Below, piece by piece: positions 13,855-37,238 of a stretch of 64,000 nt of DNA (position 1 is its first letter; each line of letters begins with the position of its first letter). Source of the stretch: Naegleria gruberi. Lineage: Eukaryota. The stretch lies in the NCBI GenBank assembly GCA_000004985.1, contig GG738876.1, one strand, 5' to 3'. The translations under genes were made by a program, and so were the position numbers. The notes below the pieces were generated by a model. The model worked only from the letters and a program-made list of their open reading frames with translations. It ran no database searches and was not told where the DNA came from.

Positions 13855-15183
13855 ATGAATCATCTTAAACGATTGATTGTTTTGGCTCTTGTAGTTGTAC
13901 TCATGTTTGTCGTCTCACTTTCACATGCTCAAGACGAACAACAGGAAAACAACAATAAGAGACCACCAAGACCTTTACCTTCAGGTAGACCACCAAGACC
14001 ACATCCAGATCATTCTGGAGGGCGACCACCTCGCCCATTCCCATCTGGAGGAAGACCACCACGTCCAGATCATTCAGGAAGAAGACCAAGACCAGATCAT
14101 TCTGGTGAGAGACCACATCCACCAGGTCCACAACCAGATCATTCAGGAAGAAGACCACCAAGACCTGGTCCACATCCTGGTCAATCAGGATTACCACCAC
14201 GTTCTGATGAACAAGATGGTCAAAGTGAAAATAGACCTCGTCCACCAAGACCTCATCCAGAACGTTCAGGTGAAAGACCACATCCAAGACCTTTCCCATC
14301 TGGAGGTAGACCACCAAGACCAGACCACTCAGGAAGAAGACCAGGTCCACATCCAGATCATTCTGGAAGACCACCTCGTCCACATCCAAGACCAGAACCA
14401 TCTTCTGAAGATGACGAACACTCTGATAGACTTGAACAAGGAAACAGACCTCGTCCACCAAGACCAGATCGTTCAGGTTTGCCACCTCGTCCATTCCCAT
14501 CTGGAGGAAGACCACCAAGACCAGATCATTCAGGAAGAAGACCACATCCAAGACCTGAACACTCTGGTGAGAGACCACATCCAAGACCAGCTCACTCTGG
14601 TGAAAGACCACCAAGACCAGATCATTCAGGAAGAAGACCAAGACCAGGTCCACAACCAGACCAATCGGGAAGACCACCTCGTCCTTATCCAGAACATTCT
14701 GGTGAAAGACCAGGCCCACGTCCTCAACCACAAGAATCAACTTCATCCTTAATAGGTGAAAGACCACCAAGACCTGATAGATCTGGAAGACCACCTCGTC
14801 CATTCCCATCTGGAGGCAGACCACCAAGACCAGGCCCATCTGGAGGAAGACCAGGTCCTGGACCAGGTCCACAACCTGATGTTTCATCTGTTGAAGATCC
14901 ACTCATTGATGCTCAAAATAATACCAAGAATGAAATTCCAAATGGACCATCCAATGGTTCTGATGCTTTGGCCATTGTCTTTGGTGTTATTGGTGCAATT
15001 GTTGTCATGGCTGCTATTGCTCTTGTCATTGGAAGTGGAATTGCTGTTTTTGTTTTGAAGAAGAAGGGTTATTCACTCTCATTGAAGAAACATCAAATGT
15101 TGAGAGATGAAGACGAATTTGAATATCCACAACAAGACCAAACTCCAATTTACTCTGTCAATCAACCAGTTGCTCAAAATTAG
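13855..15183 (+). CDS. Type I membrane protein with a Pro/Arg/His/Gly-rich decapeptide-repeat ectodomain
   Basis: Signal peptide (LIVLALVVVLMFVVSLSHA). There are about 30 degenerate units of the types FPSGGRPPRP, DHSGRRPRP and HSGERPHPRP. After these come one TM helix (ALAIVFGVIGAIVVMAAIALVIGSGIAVFVL) and a 50-aa tail beginning KKKGYSL. Confidence 0.8.
   Translation: MNHLKRLIVLALVVVLMFVVSLSHAQDEQQENNNKRPPRPLPSGRPPRPHPDHSGGRPPRPFPSGGRPPRPDHSGRRPRPDHSGERPHPPGPQPDHSGRRPPRPGPHPGQSGLPPRSDEQDGQSENRPRPPRPHPERSGERPHPRPFPSGGRPPRPDHSGRRPGPHPDHSGRPPRPHPRPEPSSEDDEHSDRLEQGNRPRPPRPDRSGLPPRPFPSGGRPPRPDHSGRRPHPRPEHSGERPHPRPAHSGERPPRPDHSGRRPRPGPQPDQSGRPPRPYPEHSGERPGPRPQPQESTSSLIGERPPRPDRSGRPPRPFPSGGRPPRPGPSGGRPGPGPGPQPDVSSVEDPLIDAQNNTKNEIPNGPSNGSDALAIVFGVIGAIVVMAAIALVIGSGIAVFVLKKKGYSLSLKKHQMLRDEDEFEYPQQDQTPIYSVNQPVAQN
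13960..14890 (+). repeat. In-frame degenerate ~30-nt coding repeat array (P/R/H/G-rich)
   Basis: Near-identical nucleotide blocks such as agaccaccaagaccagatcattcaggaagaagacca recur throughout. The lack of stop codons produces long spurious ORFs in another frame and on the opposite strand. Confidence 0.8.
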
Positions 15184-28520: not shown

Positions 28521-29047
28521 TGTGATTGGTAAAGGATTGAATATTCTTGATCTCTGTTTCAATTTTCGTTCAAACTTGCACCTCATCTCCCATTTTCCTT
28601 GAAATTCAATTGTTCGGAGATGAGTGGGAGTTATTAATTGAAAATTCCGCAGTAGTAAGCACAATCTGTTCACAAGTCCATTACTTCTCCTCATGAAATC
28701 ATCAATTAATATTGAAAATTATTTGGATGTAGATATTGCAATTTCCTTCGTGTTCTCCATCTTTATTTCTCTGTGCATTATCAAAAACTACACACAGGTG
28801 CGCCCAATGATTGATCAATATTGAACCTTTTTTCATTCCTCCCACACGTGTGTGCTCCCTATCAATCATTAAGAGCATCAACATGATCCATTCAACAAAT
28901 GCAAGAGAGGCTCTCTTGAAAATTTTGGCGCGCAACTAAAATCTATGTGATTGTGTATTTGAGACTGATGGGAAGATGCTTTGAAAAAATATCTTTTTAA
29001 AATAATTTTAAATAAATTATTGTTGAAGAAAATTGATTCTAGAAAAA

Positions 29048-32017
29048 ATGTCTTCGTACGGAACGCACGGCGATGGTGGAGATGGGTTGGAATCGAGTAA
29101 ACAACTCAATGTGCTCCAAAAGATTGCTAGAAATAGAGTGGTGAATATTGTTGGTGCGATAATATTATCAATTATTTTATTATTGAGTATTGGATGTTGT
29201 GTTGTTGTTGGTGTGCTTCATTCACATTTGCTTTTCCAATGTGGATTTGCTGAATTTATATTTATGTTACTTCTTGAAGGCGCTACATTCTTCTTCTGTA
29301 TTTATCACTTGTACAATATTTACAAGTTTTTCAAGACTAGAGCACGACACTCTGGTAAGAAGGGAATTTCCGCTATTGTTGCTGCTTTATGTTCATCAGA
29401 AGTAAATCAATACAATGCATATTCTGATTCCAGACAAGGAAATGAAGAAGATGATTTTGATGATGAAGAAGATGATGAAGATGACGAAGAAGAGGAGGAA
29501 GAAGAAAGCAAATTTTCCAAGTTTGTTGTCGGCTTTTTGAAGATTGCTGCCAATGCTATTGCTGTTTTATGTTTCATCATTTTGGTACTTTTCACAGTTG
29601 TTGTCGTTCCATTGCAACAACAAACCTACCCAACTTATAACGGTACTCTTAAACTTCCAAAGTTTACACCAAAGGGATCTTCTGCTCCTACAATTTCACG
29701 TGAAAGTAATGGTGTTGTTCACATCAAGGCTTCACACGATTATGATTTATATTTCGCACAAGGTGTAGCTGTTGCTCAAGATCGTTTGTGGCAATTGGAA
29801 TTTAATCGTAGATTGTCAAATGGTATTTTGGCTGAAGTTGCTGGTGCTGATGCTGTCAATGTTGACAGTTGGTTCAGAACTCTCGGATTTGCTCGTTCTG
29901 CTGCCAACATTTTACCAACCATTGATGCTGAAACTCTTTCATTCATTCAAGCATATTGTGATGGTATTAACTCTTATATTAATAGTAATCCACCACTTCA
30001 ACCTGAATTTGTTCTCCTCAACACTAAACCAGTTGAATGGACTCCAAGTGATGTTATTGCTTATATGAAGTTTGTTTCATTCTCTCTTTCTGATAATATG
30101 GAAAAGGAAGTTTGGAGATTCAAGATGATGCAAAGAAATATCACAAAGGACAGAGTTAACGAATTGGTTCCTTTCTACCCAACTGATATGCCAACTATTT
30201 TGAGTTTGGAAGAAATGAATTTGCAAAACGTTCCAGTTGAAGAAAGAGAAAAGATTGAAAAGGCTCAACAAGATGATTCTGCTGCTTTTATTCCAAAGGC
30301 TATTCACAATTTGACCATGTCTGTCATGGAAGAAATGTTCGCTTCATTGGAAGAATCTGGTGAATGGGGTAAACAAGCTGTCAGATCAGTTTTGAAGGGT
30401 ATGGTTGCTCCAGATATCACTGGTAACAAGGCCTCAAACAATTGGGTTCTCGGAACCAAGATTACAGCAAACAATGGATCATTGTTGGCTAACGATCCTC
30501 ATTTGGATTTGACTGCTCCAGGTATTTGGTATTTGGCTCATTTGGAAGGTCCAACTCACAATGTTATTGGTTCTACTTTTGTTGGTCTTCCAGGTATTGT
30601 TATTGGTAAGAATGATTTCATTTCATGGGGTGTTACTACTGGTCTTGTTGATGCTCAAGATTTGTACGTCATGTCCGAAGTTGAAGAAGGTAAAACTTAC
30701 AACTACAATGGTAAAGTTCTCCAATATGAAACTCGTACCGAAACTATTAATGTTAAGGGAGCTGCTGCCAAGACTATTACTGTTAAGGAATCTGTCTACG
30801 GTCCAGTTATTAATGACCACTACCAAGTTGATGGTAACGTTTTGTGTTTGAAGTCTTTGACTACCTACACTAATGATACCACACTCCAAGCTTTCCTCAA
30901 GTTGAACAGAGAAGCTAAGGATTGGAACTCATTTGTTGATGTTGTCTCCTTGTTCGTTTCCCCATCCCAAAACTTTGTCTTTGCTGACAAGAGTGGTAAC
31001 ATTGGTTACTATTTGGCTGGTTTGGTTCCAATTAGAAAGGAAGGTCACAATGGTAGATTCCCAGTTATTGGTGATGGTAGCTATGATTGGCAAGGATTTA
31101 TTCCAGCTGCTGAAAAGCCAAGCGTTTACAATCCAAAGAAGGATTACATTGCTTCTGCAAACAACAGAGTTACTCCTGTTGGTTACAAGTACAGTATTAC
31201 CCAAGATTGGTACTCTTTCTATAGAGCTAGCAGAATTGTCTCATTGATTGAAACTGCTATTGAAAAGGGAACTCCACTCAATTTTGAATACATGAAGAAG
31301 ATGCAACACGACGTTCACTCACCAGTCTTTGATCAATTCAAGTTTGTTTTTGAAGCTATTCCAAAGTTCAGAAATCTCACTGAAAATAAGGAAAAGTTGA
31401 GAGAAAAGTTGATTAATTGGGACGGTGATGAAATTTTGTACTCTCAATCTGCTTCCATCTTTGAAATGTGGTACAAGATTATGGGTAACCTCACCAAGGT
31501 TGAAACTGTCAATAGATGGTCTTTCGGTCCATATCTTTACAATGCCTTGAAGAATGGTGATAGTGCTTGTGAAAATTATCACAACACTACTTGTATGTTG
31601 TTCGCTATTGACAGCTTTGAAAATGCCATTGATGCTCTTGAAGCCACTTACGGTTCTATTCCATTGTGGGGTTCTGATATTCACGAATCTGAATTCCCTA
31701 ACCCGGTAATGGATAATACTGTTCTCAAATGTTTGGCTGGAGCTACTCGTACTACTGTTGGTGGTTCTTCAACCATTAATGTTGGTGAAACTCAATATCC
31801 TGCCCTCAATTCAAGATGGGGTGTTTCTTATAGACAAGTTGTTGATTGGCGAGGCAATCAAGCTTCATTCATCATTCCACTCGGTCAATCTGGTAACTTC
31901 TTATCTCCTCTTTACACCAACTTGTTAGAAATGTGGTCTGACCCAACTGGTCAATACTTGGACATGAAATCTGCTGGTTACACTGCAACCAATACCCTTT
32001 CTCTTTCCTCTCAATAA
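29048..32017 (+). CDS. Penicillin/acyl-homoserine-lactone acylase family Ntn-hydrolase (peptidase S45), anchored by three N-terminal TM helices
   Basis: The ATG at 29048 follows agaaaaa. Family motifs are YFAQGVAVAQDRLWQLEFNRR and the beta-chain start S-NNWVLG...LLANDPHLDLTAPGIWYLAHL. The nucleophile Ser codon is at 30434..30436. Three N-terminal TM helices flank an acidic run (EEDDFDDEEDDEDDEEEEEEE). Codon use is typical of the host. Confidence 0.85.
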   Translation: MSSYGTHGDGGDGLESSKQLNVLQKIARNRVVNIVGAIILSIILLLSIGCCVVVGVLHSHLLFQCGFAEFIFMLLLEGATFFFCIYHLYNIYKFFKTRARHSGKKGISAIVAALCSSEVNQYNAYSDSRQGNEEDDFDDEEDDEDDEEEEEEESKFSKFVVGFLKIAANAIAVLCFIILVLFTVVVVPLQQQTYPTYNGTLKLPKFTPKGSSAPTISRESNGVVHIKASHDYDLYFAQGVAVAQDRLWQLEFNRRLSNGILAEVAGADAVNVDSWFRTLGFARSAANILPTIDAETLSFIQAYCDGINSYINSNPPLQPEFVLLNTKPVEWTPSDVIAYMKFVSFSLSDNMEKEVWRFKMMQRNITKDRVNELVPFYPTDMPTILSLEEMNLQNVPVEEREKIEKAQQDDSAAFIPKAIHNLTMSVMEEMFASLEESGEWGKQAVRSVLKGMVAPDITGNKASNNWVLGTKITANNGSLLANDPHLDLTAPGIWYLAHLEGPTHNVIGSTFVGLPGIVIGKNDFISWGVTTGLVDAQDLYVMSEVEEGKTYNYNGKVLQYETRTETINVKGAAAKTITVKESVYGPVINDHYQVDGNVLCLKSLTTYTNDTTLQAFLKLNREAKDWNSFVDVVSLFVSPSQNFVFADKSGNIGYYLAGLVPIRKEGHNGRFPVIGDGSYDWQGFIPAAEKPSVYNPKKDYIASANNRVTPVGYKYSITQDWYSFYRASRIVSLIETAIEKGTPLNFEYMKKMQHDVHSPVFDQFKFVFEAIPKFRNLTENKEKLREKLINWDGDEILYSQSASIFEMWYKIMGNLTKVETVNRWSFGPYLYNALKNGDSACENYHNTTCMLFAIDSFENAIDALEATYGSIPLWGSDIHESEFPNPVMDNTVLKCLAGATRTTVGGSSTINVGETQYPALNSRWGVSYRQVVDWRGNQASFIIPLGQSGNFLSPLYTNLLEMWSDPTGQYLDMKSAGYTATNTLSLSSQ

Positions 32018-33613: not shown

Positions 33614-35056
33614 TTATTGAGAATTTTGATGTTTCATAACCAAACCATGAATCTTTTTAACTCTCATTTCCTTGAGGAATTCCATCGAAAGTTTGAACCT
33701 GTAATGAGAATCCAACATTACAATTTCAATTTCCTTCTCCAAGAAATCAAACAAATCGTCTGGAAGCGACGAAATTTGACGATTCTTATACAATTCAATT
33801 TGAAACAAAACATCATGTGTGGACTTCTTATCAATATTTACAGATTTAGGGCCATTAACATTCAGGAATTCTTCATATATTTCCTGAGCTAATTGGAATT
33901 TCTTTGCTTCAACAACTTCTAATTCAGTTTCGAGTTCTTGAGTAGTTGAAAGATTTTTCTTTCTCTTGGTTGTTGGTTGACCAACACTGAGAGAAGTATT
34001 GGATTTGGAAGACTGATCAACAACAGAGATGGTGGAAGGAGTTGCGTTATTGGAAACTTCAGATAATTCGAAAGAAACGCTACCTAAACTATTAGAACTT
34101 TCAGTTTCTTCACTCAATGTTTGAACCAATTCAATTTGATATTCACACAATCGCTTGTACTGCTGAACTTTTTCAAGGAATTCAAAGTTTTCAGAGTTAA
34201 ATTCCTTCTTACAATGATTCTTAAAGAGATTTCTCAATCTGTCATTATTCATGGTGTGTGAAATGTCAACTGCTAGTGCTTCTCTTAATTTTTGAACATT
34301 GTTGGAGTCTGATCTAATAGCCAACCCAAAAACAAAGATAATGACTGGAACTGTAACTACAACTGCCAAGCAAATAATTGATAATGAAGTTATGGACATA
34401 GCATTAGTGATTTTTGACACTTGTTCTTGAGAAGCAAGTACATAATCAAGTACAACATCTTGTGCAGTTCTAAAAGTGTTTCTTCTTGCGATATAAGTGG
34501 CGGAAGTAAGCAATCGAACAGCTTCCGTAAAGTTTCCATCTCTAATATTCGAAACAGCTTGAGAATCAGTATCAGTCAAATAATTAACAATTCCCTGCAA
34601 ATTATTTCTATACTGCTGCGAAATACTCTGAGGTATCTTTTGAAGCATATTTTCAGTCAACTCATCATTCACTTTCGAATAATTATTATAATAAGCCAAA
34701 TATCCCTCATTTCCCGAATAGGCAGCCACCAACGTATAAGCTTGAATATAGGCAGTATACGTAGATACCTTCGCTCTAGTAGCCAACAAATCAATATCCT
34801 CATTCATCTGACTATTTTCACTATAAATCAGCAAACCAAGGAGAATGAGGAAAGTAATGGTATTGAGGACCATGGCAACCATTGCAAAGATTTTAATGAA
34901 ATTCAATTCGAGTTTGAAGAAACAGCAGTGGACTGTGAAGGTTTTTGGCTGTTTTTGATGTTTACGAAAGGAATCGTCGAGAGAGGATTGCTGGCGTTTG
35001 AGAGGAGGTGAAGATTCAATGCTTGTTTCGATTGGTTTCTTTGTTTCGTTTTCCAT
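33614..35056 (-). CDS. Membrane receptor-like RGS protein (TM, ~140-aa ectodomain, TM, RGS domain)
   Basis: The hydrophobic helices are at about aa 55-78 and 219-246. The RGS box is at about aa 268-460. Its start is LRNLFKNHCKKEFNSENFEFLEKVQQYKRL and its end is AQEIYEEFLNVNGPKSVNIDKKS...IEIVMLDSHYRFKLS. A Ser/Thr-rich insert of about 70 aa splits the box. Confidence 0.85.
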   Translation of the reverse strand: MENETKKPIETSIESSPPLKRQQSSLDDSFRKHQKQPKTFTVHCCFFKLELNFIKIFAMVAMVLNTITFLILLGLLIYSENSQMNEDIDLLATRAKVSTYTAYIQAYTLVAAYSGNEGYLAYYNNYSKVNDELTENMLQKIPQSISQQYRNNLQGIVNYLTDTDSQAVSNIRDGNFTEAVRLLTSATYIARRNTFRTAQDVVLDYVLASQEQVSKITNAMSITSLSIICLAVVVTVPVIIFVFGLAIRSDSNNVQKLREALAVDISHTMNNDRLRNLFKNHCKKEFNSENFEFLEKVQQYKRLCEYQIELVQTLSEETESSNSLGSVSFELSEVSNNATPSTISVVDQSSKSNTSLSVGQPTTKRKKNLSTTQELETELEVVEAKKFQLAQEIYEEFLNVNGPKSVNIDKKSTHDVLFQIELYKNRQISSLPDDLFDFLEKEIEIVMLDSHYRFKLSMEFLKEMRVKKIHGLVMKHQNSQ

Positions 35057-35980: not shown

Positions 35981-36970
35981 ATGCAAAATCATACTTCACA
36001 AGTACAGGGTGATTCTTTCTCATTGCCACCTTCTTCATCACCACCACCACCACCACAAGAAGTCTCTACACAACAGCAAACATCGTACTATTCATGGAGT
36101 CCAACTAGTCTTTCAGAAGCTGCCAAACAACAGCAAACAGAGTATTACAGTGGAGGTTCTCCAAGCTATTCACCAACTTCACCGAGCTATTCACCAACTA
36201 CACCCGTCTATGCTCCAACTTCACCAGCATATTCACCAACTTATACTCCAACCTCTCCTTGTTATTCTTATACCTCTCCATATTATAGTACGATTTTTTA
36301 TCTTCCGAGAGAGACAGTGCTGAGTTTTGATTTGGATCAAAGTGTATTGGAAAGGATTGAGAAGGAAACAAGAAATTGGGGAGTGTTGAGGTGGAGAAAT
36401 CCAGAGTTGGGTGAAAGATTTTGGGGACATGTTTATATGAGTGTTGATTCAAAGATTGTGGAAATTATTAGAGAACATTATGGACCGAAGGGATTAATTA
36501 CTAAAGTTAGGGAATTGTTGGGAGAGGTAGGAGAATCGCACTCTACGGTTGAGTATAATGCATTCTTGTTGCCAACACATTTTACTGTAATTGGGAGTAA
36601 GGAGTGGCAACAGGCATTCTTGGGATTGGAGAAGGAGGTTGAGTATTTTACAGTTAAAAATCCTGCAGAAAATGTATTCGAAAGTTCAATTGAGTTTGTG
36701 AATAGTCCATATAAGAGTTATTCAAAATTGTTTAAGGAAGAGAAAATTCAGGAATTGTGCAATTTTACCTATTTTACAAGATCTGGATTTGCAAATTCAC
36801 TTCCCAACGAAATTGTATCCCACATTAAACAATTTCTAATCATTGATCTGAAAGAAAGTGGACGAAAGGTTAAATTCTCAATCACTGGCCAAATTAGTTT
36901 AGTTCCAAGACAGTTTGGAGAAAAGCTTGGTTTCATTCTCCATGTCGATTGTCCAGAAATGAATAATTGA
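35981..36970 (+). CDS. Hypothetical protein with an N-terminal RNA polymerase II CTD-like heptad tract
   Basis: aaaaaaaaaaATG start. After a poly-Pro/Gln region comes [48 protein letters not shown]-terminal region of about 225 aa has no domain I recognise. Confidence 0.75.
36146..36289 (+). repeat. CTD-type heptad repeats (consensus YSPTSPS), about 6 units
   Basis: Direct translation of codons 36146..36289. One unit is the exact consensus YSPTSPS, and the neighbouring units differ at 1-3 positions. Confidence 0.85.
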
Positions 36971-37238
36971 GAGAGAATACGGATTCCAAAGTATGGACTA
37001 TTCCATTCCTTTAGGACTTGATTGGCGTGATTACAAGTATCCTCAATTACCAAAAAAGGTAGTTATTAAGAATTTTTCAAAGAAGAGAACTCGTGACACA
37101 TTTGAAGAATGCAATATTAAATAAAATCTAAAAGCTTTTTAATAATCCATTTTGGTGGAAAACAAAGCAGTATTATTGGAAACTATTTAGAATATTGATG
37201 ATAAATAACACTTGAATAGCAATTTGTAATATTTGAGT

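What the first reader, a model, noticed from the sequence alone, without database searches (positions are those of the whole stretch)
36146..36289. RNA polymerase II CTD-type heptads (YSPTSPS) in a small protein that is not a polymerase
Direct translation gives [47 protein letters not shown] further partial unit, YYSWSPTS, lies upstream. The tract sits in a 329-aa protein whose remaining ~225 aa have no polymerase features.

Established knowledge: the tandem YSPTSPS heptad is the signature of the Rpb1 C-terminal domain. It is the docking platform for CTD kinases, phosphatases, capping and processing factors.

Inference: a free-standing protein carrying about six such heptads could act in three ways. 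It could be a CTD mimic or decoy, a substrate of the same kinases, or an adaptor that recruits CTD-binding factors. It is not a fragment of Rpb1, because the ORF has its own A-run/ATG start and a unique globular C-terminus.
Basis: partly seen in the sequence, partly recalled or inferred. Interest (0 to 1): 0.65.

Follow-up and report, generated by a model that had tools for sequence, protein, structure and literature searches.

The report
CTD-like heptads on 2H-domain protein
A small Naegleria gruberi protein really carries six RNA-polymerase-II-tail-type YSPTSPx repeats; they sit in front of a degenerate 2H (RNA-end phosphoesterase) domain in a small family seen only in Naegleria and Willaertia, and what this uncharacterised fusion does is so far only inferred.

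Summary
Window 36146-36289 encodes six YSPTSPx-type heptads inside the 329-aa ORF 35981-36970. This ORF is an annotated Naegleria gruberi 'predicted protein'.

- **Not chance:** no composition-preserving shuffle out of 200,000 reached the observed in-register match. The isolated tract passes Pfam's Rpb1-repeat model.
- **Not an Rpb1 fragment.**
- **The 'unique' C-terminus is a known domain type.** It is a divergent 2H-SAK ('Swiss Army Knife') 2H-phosphoesterase domain.
- **Small family.** It is shared with one N. gruberi paralogue, one N. lovaniensis protein, three Willaertia magna proteins and environmental contigs.
- **Heptads are conserved.** Seven of the eight distinct members carry 2-7 heptads directly N-terminal to the domain. 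The consensus is Y-S-P-T-S-P-x.
- **Probably not an enzyme in Naegleria.** Two Willaertia members keep both catalytic HxT/S motifs. All Naegleria members have lost motif 2.
- **Truncated gene model.** A +1 frameshift cuts off about 52 conserved codons, including a K/R-rich, nuclear-localisation-like tail.

Best inference (0.4): the heptads are a portable docking and phosphorylation tail. They would link an RNA-end-binding 2H module to nuclear CTD-reading machinery. Function is untested.

The parts
35981..36970 (+). Annotated ORF, 329 aa, 100% identical to a Naegleria gruberi 'predicted protein' (P0001). ATG follows an A11 run.
35981..36145 (+). Copy-specific N-terminal low-complexity leader (SSSPPPPP, Q-rich). 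It includes the isolated partial unit YYSWSPTS at 36086-36109. The N. gruberi paralogue and the Willaertia and N. lovaniensis members have no such leader.
36146..36289 (+). CTD-type heptad tract: [28 protein letters not shown], (YSPT), [16 protein letters not shown]. The equivalent N-terminal region of the paralogue model is low-confidence (pLDDT below 50), as expected for disorder.
36164..36242 (+). 21-nt tandem DNA repeat (3.8 copies, 80% matches) underlying the four best heptads. This is the signature of expansion by slippage or unequal exchange.
36296..36967 (+). Globular domain homologous to 2H-SAK (PF22547) 2H phosphoesterase domains. It starts with the strand LSFDL (36320-36334). It contains the non-catalytic WGHVYM strand (36422-36439).
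36578..36589 (+). 2H motif 1, H-F-T-V (His200). The His is invariant in the family, in the context LP[TSP]H[FIV][TS]VI.
36962..36970 (+). Frameshift site and annotated TGA stop (…GAA ATG AAT AAT TGA). All relatives read on here with EL..LR..YGF.
36963..37124 (+). 53 open codons in the +1 frame ([21 protein letters not shown]…KKRTRDTFEECNIK). The tblastn match to the paralogue's C-terminal tail covers 36966-37106 (58% identity, E=2e-11). This is the missing end of the domain plus the tail.
36996..37016 (+). Position equivalent to 2H motif 2. The window has DYSIPLG where bona fide 2H-SAK has DFHI[ST]LG and Willaertia P0065 and P0069 have EFHYTIG. The catalytic His and Thr are replaced by Ser and Pro.
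37053..37097 (+). K/R-rich cluster (KKVVIKNFSKKRTRD) that looks like a nuclear localisation signal. The N. gruberi paralogue, the N. lovaniensis member and two Willaertia members have similar clusters. Here it lies downstream of the frameshift.
   Evidence: the NLS reading is inference

Best explanation
**Shown.** The locus encodes a member of a small heterolobosean (Naegleria/Willaertia) protein family with three parts:
1. an N-terminal disordered array of 2-7 Pol II CTD-type heptads (consensus Y-S-P-T-S-P-x);
2. immediately after it, a divergent 2H-SAK-type 2H phosphoesterase domain;
3. usually, a C-terminal K/R-rich tail.

The heptad number changes by slippage of a 21-nt unit. The window copy has the second-largest array, with 6 heptads. 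Two Willaertia paralogues keep both catalytic HxT/S motifs. All Naegleria members, including this one, have lost motif 2.

**Inferred.** The heptad array is a portable CTD-type docking and phosphorylation tail. Proline-directed CTD kinases would phosphorylate it. CTD readers would bind it: CID-type domains, capping enzyme, and Ess1/Pin1-type isomerases. It might also co-partition with CTD-type condensates. Either way it would bring the attached 2H module to nuclear sites of transcription-coupled RNA processing. In Willaertia the 2H module may be an RNA-end or cyclic-phosphate enzyme. In Naegleria it is probably only a binding module. So the tail acts as an adaptor or address tag rather than as part of a polymerase.
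For: - **Real heptads:** (PF05001 26.2 bits against a cut-off of 20.3).
- **Family membership:** the exhaustive phmmer search with the domain alone found only 8 proteins in 1.84 billion. Seven of these belong to the family. The eighth is a weak 1,910-aa repetitive hit. Sources are N. gruberi x2, N. lovaniensis, W. magna x3 and ENA contigs.
- **Heptads are conserved across a diverged family:** the domains are only 26-33% identical, yet seven of the eight distinct members keep heptads at the same place, just upstream of the first domain strand.
- **The constraint pattern matches a real CTD:** over the motif hits tabulated, Y1, P3, S/T5 and P6 are nearly fixed, S2 and T4 predominate, and position 7 is free.
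- **Domain identity:**
  - PF22547 scores above its gathering score on P0065 (30.4 against 27) and sub-threshold on four other members.
  - The family profile finds a bona fide tandem 2H-SAK protein, P0070 (Pfam 103.8 bits), at E=1.4e-4 database-wide.
  - hhalign gives probability 95.6%, E=1e-8.
  - The best BFVD hit is a phage 'Swiss Army Knife 2H' protein.
- **Disorder:** the tail of the paralogue model has pLDDT below 50.
- **K/R cluster:** present at the C-terminus of five of seven complete members.
- **Background knowledge:** 2H enzymes act on RNA ends and cyclic phosphates, and CTD heptads are docking sites for RNA-processing factors.
Against: - There are no expression, localisation, phosphorylation or binding data.
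- The window copy is frameshifted. As annotated, it lacks the last helix and strand of the domain and the K/R tail.
- The closest relative with a long array (environmental contigs L003 and L006) also carries in-frame stops. The long-array copies may therefore be decaying.
- One Willaertia paralogue (P0066) has no heptads at all.
- Naegleria members lack catalytic motif 2, so what the domain contributes is unclear.
- Six heptads are fewer than the minimum needed for CTD function on Rpb1 in yeast (background knowledge).
- N. gruberi's own Rpb1 tail is reported to lack heptad repeats (PMC3646058). If that is so, it is not established that canonical heptad readers exist in this organism.
- S/T-P motifs are generic CDK and MAPK sites.
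Confidence: 0.4

Rival explanations
1. Generic proline-directed phospho-regulated or disordered linker. The Y-S-P-x-S-P units would be CDK/MAPK-type sites or a flexible spacer. They would have arisen by tandem duplication of a 21-nt unit and resemble the CTD by convergence, with no link to CTD readers or transcription.
For: The 21-nt DNA repeat shows recent slippage. Copy number varies from 0 to 7 between members. Many unrelated non-Rpb1 proteins in the databases carry PF05001-type arrays next to assorted domains: RING, synaptobrevin, USP7/MATH, Slu7. Such arrays therefore arise repeatedly. N. gruberi Rpb1 is reported to lack heptad structure.
Against: The full Y1/P3/S5/P6 pattern and the 7-residue register are retained across members whose globular domains are only about 30% identical. 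An SP-site linker needs only S/T-P, not Tyr at a fixed phase. The position-7 variability mirrors real CTDs.
Confidence: 0.27
2. The window copy is a decaying paralogue or pseudogene, and its large heptad number is neutral repeat expansion. Any function resides in the intact paralogue (P0002, 2 heptads).
For: There is a frameshift 52 codons before the family's normal end. Catalytic motif 2 is lost. There is a copy-specific low-complexity leader. The most similar long-array sequences (L003, L006) carry one or two in-frame stops.
Against: The 53 codons after the frameshift are still open. That has a chance of about 0.02 at this base composition. They are also 58% identical to the paralogue. The shift is therefore very recent or an assembly error. 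The rest of the ORF is intact and 74% identical to P0002 over 249 residues. Loss of motif 2 is shared by all Naegleria members, so it is old and compatible with a retained non-catalytic role.
Confidence: 0.2
3. Decoy: the free heptad array competes with Pol II for CTD kinases, phosphatases or readers and so down-regulates transcription-coupled events. On this view the 2H domain is incidental.
For: The sequence matches the CTD consensus. The idea follows from background knowledge of CTD-binding factors.
Against: An array of 2-7 heptads on a presumably low-abundance protein is a poor competitor. The fusion to the same domain is strictly conserved in every member, which argues that tail and domain act together. 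The N. gruberi Rpb1 tail is reportedly non-repetitive.
Confidence: 0.08
4. Fragment or mis-assembly of the RPB1 gene, or a Tyr/Pro-rich structural (extensin-like) wall protein.
For: Only the superficial similarity of the repeat, and the SSSPPPPP run upstream.
Against: There are no polymerase domains. The tract is N-terminal to a conserved unrelated domain in three species. The protein is the annotated product of a 397-kb N. gruberi scaffold. No family member shows an N-terminal signal-peptide-like hydrophobic segment by eye. That differs from the genuinely secreted Pro-rich repeat protein at 13855-15183.
Confidence: 0.02

Closest known systems
[quoted passage not shown]
   Same: Both are tandem 7-residue units with consensus Y-S-P-T-S-P-x. 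Y1, P3, S5 and P6 are nearly fixed and position 7 is free. Both are predicted to be disordered. The isolated tract passes the Pfam gathering score.
   Different: There are only about 6 units (2-7 across the family) against roughly 15-52 in Rpb1. The tract is at the N-terminus of a small non-polymerase protein. No Rpb1 domains are present. Whether the same kinases and readers act on it is unknown.
2H-SAK domain (Pfam PF22547, 'Swiss Army Knife' 2H phosphoesterase) and the wider 2H superfamily (LigT/ThpR, Usb1, CPDase, Acb1, AKAP7, CNPase)
   Different: Motif 2 (DFHI[ST]LG) survives only in two Willaertia members. In the window gene it reads DYSIPLG and lies after a frameshift. There is a roughly 60-80-residue, largely helical insertion between the two halves. 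Neither the annotated window protein nor a frameshift-corrected version reaches any Pfam threshold. No other 2H protein that I found carries CTD heptads (P0070 has none).
CTD mimics on non-polymerase proteins, such as the Nrd1-interacting motif (NIM) of yeast Trf4, which binds the CTD-interacting domain (CID) of Nrd1
   Same: The concept is the same: a non-polymerase RNA-processing protein carries a CTD-like element so that it can use a CTD reader (PMC4186968, listed; details from background knowledge).
   Different: NIMs are single short motifs that only loosely resemble a phospho-heptad. Here there is a true tandem heptad array. No binding partner is known.
Spt5 C-terminal repeat region (CTR)
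   Same: It is a repetitive, kinase-targeted, disordered tail on a non-polymerase transcription factor that recruits processing factors (background knowledge).
   Different: Spt5 repeats have a different sequence and period. Spt5 is a universal elongation factor, not a lineage-specific 2H protein.
Sporadic non-Rpb1 proteins with PF05001-type arrays in public databases (P0023, P0041, P0053, P0057, P0058, Mytilus 'USP7')
   Same: They carry free-standing YSPTSPS-like arrays next to unrelated domains.
   Different: They are unrelated to this family. Most are single unverified gene models. None has a 2H domain, and none is shown to be conserved across genera as this one is.

Membership tests
Rpb1 CTD (PF05001) | Tandem heptads matching Y1-S2-P3-T4-S5-P6-S7 | tested here: met
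   26 of 36 residues match in register, and 0 of 200,000 shuffles reach this. The isolated tract scores 26.2 bits against a gathering score of 20.3. There is no hit when the whole protein is scanned.
Rpb1 CTD (PF05001) | Lies at the C-terminus of Rpb1, after the conserved polymerase domains (PF04997…PF04990) | tested here: not met
   There are no polymerase domains in the ORF. The tract is N-terminal to a 2H-type domain.
Rpb1 CTD (PF05001) | Long array (typically 15-52 units) | tested here: not met
   About 6 units here and 0-7 across the family.
Rpb1 CTD (PF05001) | Phosphorylated by CTD kinases and bound by CTD readers | not testable with these tools
   Needs phosphoproteomics or binding assays.
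2H-SAK / 2H phosphoesterase superfamily (PF22547) | Match to the PF22547 profile at the gathering score | tested here: not met
   The window protein, annotated or frameshift-corrected, gives no hit. Family member P0065 passes (30.4 against 27). P0069, P0066, P0064 and P0002 are sub-threshold.
2H-SAK / 2H phosphoesterase superfamily (PF22547) | Profile-level homology to bona fide members | tested here: met
   The family profile hits P0070 (Pfam 2H-SAK, 103.8 bits) at E=1.4e-4 database-wide. hhalign gives 92-96% probability and E=1e-8 over the C-terminal half.
2H-SAK / 2H phosphoesterase superfamily (PF22547) | Two-lobed alpha+beta 2H fold | tested here: inconclusive
2H-SAK / 2H phosphoesterase superfamily (PF22547) | Catalytic motif 1, H-x-[TS]-x | tested here: met
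   H200-F-T-V (36578-36589). The His is invariant in all members.
2H-SAK / 2H phosphoesterase superfamily (PF22547) | Catalytic motif 2, H-x-[TS]-x | tested here: not met
   The aligned position reads S-I-P-L in both N. gruberi copies (in the window, after the frameshift at 36996-37016). It reads V-L-C-V in N. lovaniensis and V-Y-C-V in P0063. It is kept as H-Y-T-I only in W. magna P0065 and P0069.
CTD mimic / CID ligand (Trf4-NIM type) | Direct binding to a CTD-interacting domain | not testable with these tools
   No binding data. This is a functional analogy only.

The most novel reading that the evidence does not exclude
In these heteroloboseans the canonical heptad code may have been uncoupled from the polymerase. 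Rpb1's own tail is reported to be non-repetitive in N. gruberi. Regular YSPTSPx arrays would then persist on a lineage-specific family of 2H-domain proteins. These proteins would be genuine clients of the ancestral CTD kinases and readers, supplying heptads 'in trans' to connect RNA-end repair or processing with transcription.
Probability: 0.08. Interest if true: 0.85.

Novelty: new variant of a known kind. Interest (0 to 1): 0.5.

Why it matters
CTD heptads are normally treated as the private signature of Rpb1. Here there is a conserved, genus-spanning family in which a short heptad array is fused to an RNA-end-type (2H) domain. That makes it a natural experiment on whether a few heptads are enough to address a protein to CTD readers.

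The family also contains paired versions: ones that look catalytically competent (Willaertia) and ones that look dead (Naegleria). This makes the question directly testable.

If N. gruberi's own Pol II tail really lacks heptads, the family would also bear on how the CTD code evolved in Discoba.

On the practical side, the work corrects a truncated gene model and assigns a domain to several 'predicted proteins'.

Tried and rejected
- **Pfam on the whole protein:** no hit. A frameshift-corrected version also gave none.
- **PDB sequence search with the family profile:** noise only.
- **Foldseek against the PDB:** nothing significant. The afdb50 library was not available.
- **hhalign of the family against E. 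coli ThpR/LigT:** only a 14-column, 0.75%-probability match of the first strand and helix. This is not usable.
- **My first guess at the catalytic histidines was wrong.** I thought WGHVYM and FILHVDC were the catalytic His strands. Alignment to bona fide 2H-SAK rejected this. These histidines align to Phe and Ala in SAK. The true motif 2 lies further downstream.
- **Second AF2 model (P0065):** too poor to use (pLDDT 53).
- **Viral origin:** no relative in IMG/VR.
- **Paralogue DNA:** could not be retrieved, so there is no codon-level comparison and no check for extra upstream heptads in P0002.
- **Synteny:** the immediate gene neighbours listed for the N. lovaniensis locus (L005) and the W. 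magna locus (L001) carry different Pfam domains from the window's neighbours.
- **N. gruberi Rpb1 sequence:** could not be obtained. Yang & Stiller 2014 (PMC4000794) is not held. Four literature searches on the Naegleria CTD gave only PMC3646058.
- **Literature on '2H-SAK' / Swiss Army Knife:** nothing in the library. The RNA-repair context of SAK proteins rests on my recollection of Burroughs & Aravind 2016 and on the Pfam name.
- **Intron spanning the stop codon:** rejected. There is no GT…AG pair of plausible length, and splicing there would remove the conserved PEMN.

Full report
**1. What is in the sequence**

The window is AT-rich (about 33-35% G+C). The ORF 35981-36970 (+) is 100% identical to a 329-aa 'predicted protein' of Naegleria gruberi. 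The upstream partial unit YYSWSPTS is at 36086-36109.

Tyrosines fall at residues 56, 63, 70, 77 and 84 with a strict period of 7. A 4-residue partial unit breaks the register once.

The DNA is itself a 21-nt tandem repeat over 36164-36242, with 3.8 copies at 80% identity.

The pattern is not a by-product of S/P/T/Y richness. In 200,000 shuffles of the 36-residue core, none reached the observed in-register match to YSPTSPS (26 of 36).

Scanned alone, the tract passes Pfam's Rpb1-repeat model at 26.2 bits against a cut-off of 20.3. Within the full protein, HMMER reports nothing.

No other such tandem exists in any frame of the window.

**2. The protein is not alone, and the heptads are a family trait**

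An exhaustive phmmer search of 1.84 billion representative proteins, using only the globular part (36290-36967), returned eight proteins. Two profile searches added one more family member and one outside relative. The members are:
- an N. gruberi paralogue, P0002 (303 aa, 74-78% identical in the domain);
- N. lovaniensis C9374_009765, P0064;
- three Willaertia magna proteins, P0065, P0066 and P0069;
- environmental contigs, P0063 and P0062/P0067 (loci L003, L004, L006).

The globular domains are only 26-33% identical between genera. Even so, heptads sit just upstream of the first domain strand in seven of the eight distinct members:

| Member | N-terminal tract |
|---|---|
| P0002 | …TPSYSPSSPAYAPS |
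| P0063 | SPTSPY YSPTFPY YSPTSPR YTPTSPN YSP |
| P0064 | YSPTTPY YLPSSPP YGPPHSPP |
| P0065 | [14 protein letters not shown] |
| P0069 | YEPTSPI … YSPA YTPVSPS |
| L006 | [49 protein letters not shown] |
| P0066 | none |

Over the motif hits tabulated, Y1, P3, S/T5 and P6 are nearly fixed. S2 and T4 predominate and position 7 is free. This is the same constraint profile as authentic CTDs.

Copy number is labile, at 0-7, which fits the 21-nt slippage signature.

**3. The 'unique' C-terminus is a divergent 2H-SAK domain**

- Pfam PF22547 (2H-SAK, 'Swiss Army Knife 2H phosphoesterase') hits P0065 above its gathering score (30.4 against 27). It hits P0069, P0066, P0064 and P0002 below the gathering score.
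- The family profile (A5) finds a bona fide tandem 2H-SAK protein, P0070 (Pfam 103.8 bits), at E=1.4e-4 against 5.8 billion sequences.
- hhalign against its two repeats gives 95.6% probability and E=1e-8.
- Foldseek is not significant against the PDB. Its top BFVD hit is a phage 'Swiss Army Knife 2H' protein at E=0.05.

Taken together, homology to 2H-SAK is well supported. Direct membership of the window protein at Pfam thresholds is not.

**4. Catalytic status**

The alignment to P0070 fixes the two 2H motifs.

Motif 1 (SAK GAHISV) corresponds to LP[TSP]H[FIV][TS]VI, which keeps an invariant His in the family. In the window it is H200-F-T-V at 36578-36589.

Motif 2 (SAK DFHI[ST]LG) follows the conserved S-P-E-L..L-R..Y-G-F helix:

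| Member | Sequence at motif 2 | HxT status |
|---|---|---|
| W. magna P0065, P0069 | EFHYTIG | kept |
| W. magna P0066 | EFYYFLG | lost |
| P0063 | LDFVYCVG | lost |
| N. lovaniensis P0064 | MDFVLCVG | lost |
| N. gruberi P0002 | MEFSIPLG | lost |
| Window | MDYSIPLG | lost |

The two other conserved histidines (WGHVY, FLHVxS) align to Phe and Ala in SAK, so they are not catalytic.

Since 2H catalysis uses both histidines (background knowledge), the Naegleria proteins are probably non-catalytic. The two Willaertia paralogues may be active enzymes.

**5. The gene model is truncated**

Every relative reads through the position of the window's stop codon (36968-36970) with EL..LR..YGF. In the window, the homologous sequence continues in the +1 frame as [21 protein letters not shown]…VIKNFSKKRTRDTFEECNIK. 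It runs 53 open codons over 36963-37124.

tblastn with the paralogue gives 58% identity and E=2e-11 for this tail. The chance of 53 open codons at this base composition is about 0.02. No plausible intron spans the site.

So there is a one-base indel near AATAATT. It is either an assembly error or a very recent frameshift.

As annotated, the product lacks the last helix and strand of the domain. It also lacks a K/R cluster (KKRTRD) that recurs at the C-terminus of five of seven complete members and looks like a classical nuclear localisation signal (inference).

The nearest long-array relative also shows damage. L006 has one in-frame TGA and L003 has two stops. A decaying-paralogue reading of the window copy therefore cannot be dismissed.

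**6. How it most likely works**

Shown:
- a disordered, CTD-consensus heptad array fused to a 2H-SAK-type domain;
- the fusion conserved across Naegleria and Willaertia;
- motif 2 lost in Naegleria.

Inferred:
- the array is an address or docking tail, phosphorylated by proline-directed CTD kinases;
- CTD readers recognise it, or it is recruited into CTD-type condensates;
- this places an RNA-end or cyclic-phosphate-recognising module at sites of nuclear RNA processing.

I give this 0.4. The rivals are:
- a generic SP-site or disordered linker that resembles the CTD by convergence (0.27);
- neutral expansion in a dying paralogue (0.2);
- a competitive decoy (0.08);
- an Rpb1 fragment or a wall protein (0.02; refuted).

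One complication remains. Stump & Ostrozhynska (PMC3646058) state that the N. gruberi Rpb1 C-terminal extension is Ser/Pro-rich but 'lacks repeat structure'. I could not retrieve the Rpb1 sequence to check. None of the 61 database hits to the full protein was a Naegleria Rpb1, which is only weakly consistent with the claim. If it is true, the family would hold the only regular heptads known in this organism. That weakens the reading 'mimic of its own CTD' and raises the more novel reading given in the section on the most novel reading.

**7. Comparison with what is known, and novelty**

The tract works like, and scores as, a CTD repeat. It fails the features that define membership of the Rpb1 CTD: location on Rpb1 and array length.

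The domain is a homologue of 2H-SAK/2H phosphoesterases but fails one defining catalytic motif.

Functional analogues are CTD mimics such as the Trf4 NIM (PMC4186968) and the Spt5 CTR (background knowledge).

Isolated PF05001-type arrays also appear next to unrelated domains in scattered database proteins. A free-standing heptad array is therefore not unprecedented as a sequence feature. I found no description of a conserved heptad-plus-2H family. All members are annotated 'predicted' or 'hypothetical' protein.

I classify it as a new variant of known kinds, with moderate interest (0.5). Function is wholly inferred, and the particular copy in this window may be damaged.

**8. Genomic context**

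Neighbouring genes are ordinary and unrelated:
- an RGS-domain membrane protein (33614-35056);
- an ABC transporter;
- methyltransferases;
- a Zn2Cys6 protein;
- an F-box protein;
- a penicillin amidase.

The immediate gene neighbours listed for the N. lovaniensis and W. magna loci carry different Pfam domains from these.

Noticed in passing
window 36962-37124: The public 329-aa gene model ends at a stop created by a one-base frameshift. 53 further codons in the +1 frame are homologous to the C-terminus of all relatives. They include the degenerate 2H motif 2 and a KKRTRD basic cluster. This is either an assembly error or a very recent frameshift.
   Followed up: yes
window 13855-15183 (+): A 442-aa ORF in a local 41% G+C island. 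It has a signal-peptide-like N-terminus, then about 350 aa of Pro/Arg-rich 'HSG(R/E)RP(P/H)PRP' repeats, then a transmembrane segment and a short tail. There is no Pfam hit. ORFs are open in several frames because of the repeat.
   Followed up: partly
window 29033-32017 (+): A 994-aa ORF with a full-length penicillin amidase domain (PF01804, 600 bits), in a stretch of raised G+C (0.39 against about 0.33). This is a bacterial-type enzyme in an amoeboflagellate genome and a possible horizontal acquisition.
   Followed up: no
L003 1105-1533 and L006 1105-1959 (ENA metagenome contigs): Two contigs from different samples are identical for 1383 nt, including the 7-heptad N-terminus. They then differ at 24 of the next 150 positions. 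L003 has TAA and TGA where L006 has GAA and GGA. L006 has its own in-frame TGA and ends in Illumina adapter sequence. Possible causes are chimeric assembly, paralogue mixing or pseudogenes.
   Followed up: partly
L001 4896-5885 and 7048-11352 (Willaertia magna): The W. magna family member P0065 has two notable neighbours. One is a 329-aa ORF that is almost entirely K/R/V/A repeats behind a signal-peptide-like start. The other is a 1434-aa Sen1/Upf1-type SF1 helicase (AAA_11/AAA_12). Adjacency in a eukaryote is probably coincidental.
   Followed up: no
family alignment A5, columns ~290-305 (window 37020-37050 in the +1 frame): Several members have a weak YSP-like motif C-terminal to the domain as well: P0063 HYPSYSYTPSFTP, P0064 RYSPC, P0065 VYSPRYDPFY, window YKYPQLP. 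There may be a degenerate heptad on both sides of the domain.
   Followed up: no
P0066 (Willaertia magna ABC040_007000 family member): This is the only member without heptads. It is also the only one to have lost both non-catalytic conserved histidines (GNVY, LLPIKS), and it has lost motif 2. It looks like a degenerate paralogue. With a single example, no correlation can be claimed.
   Followed up: partly
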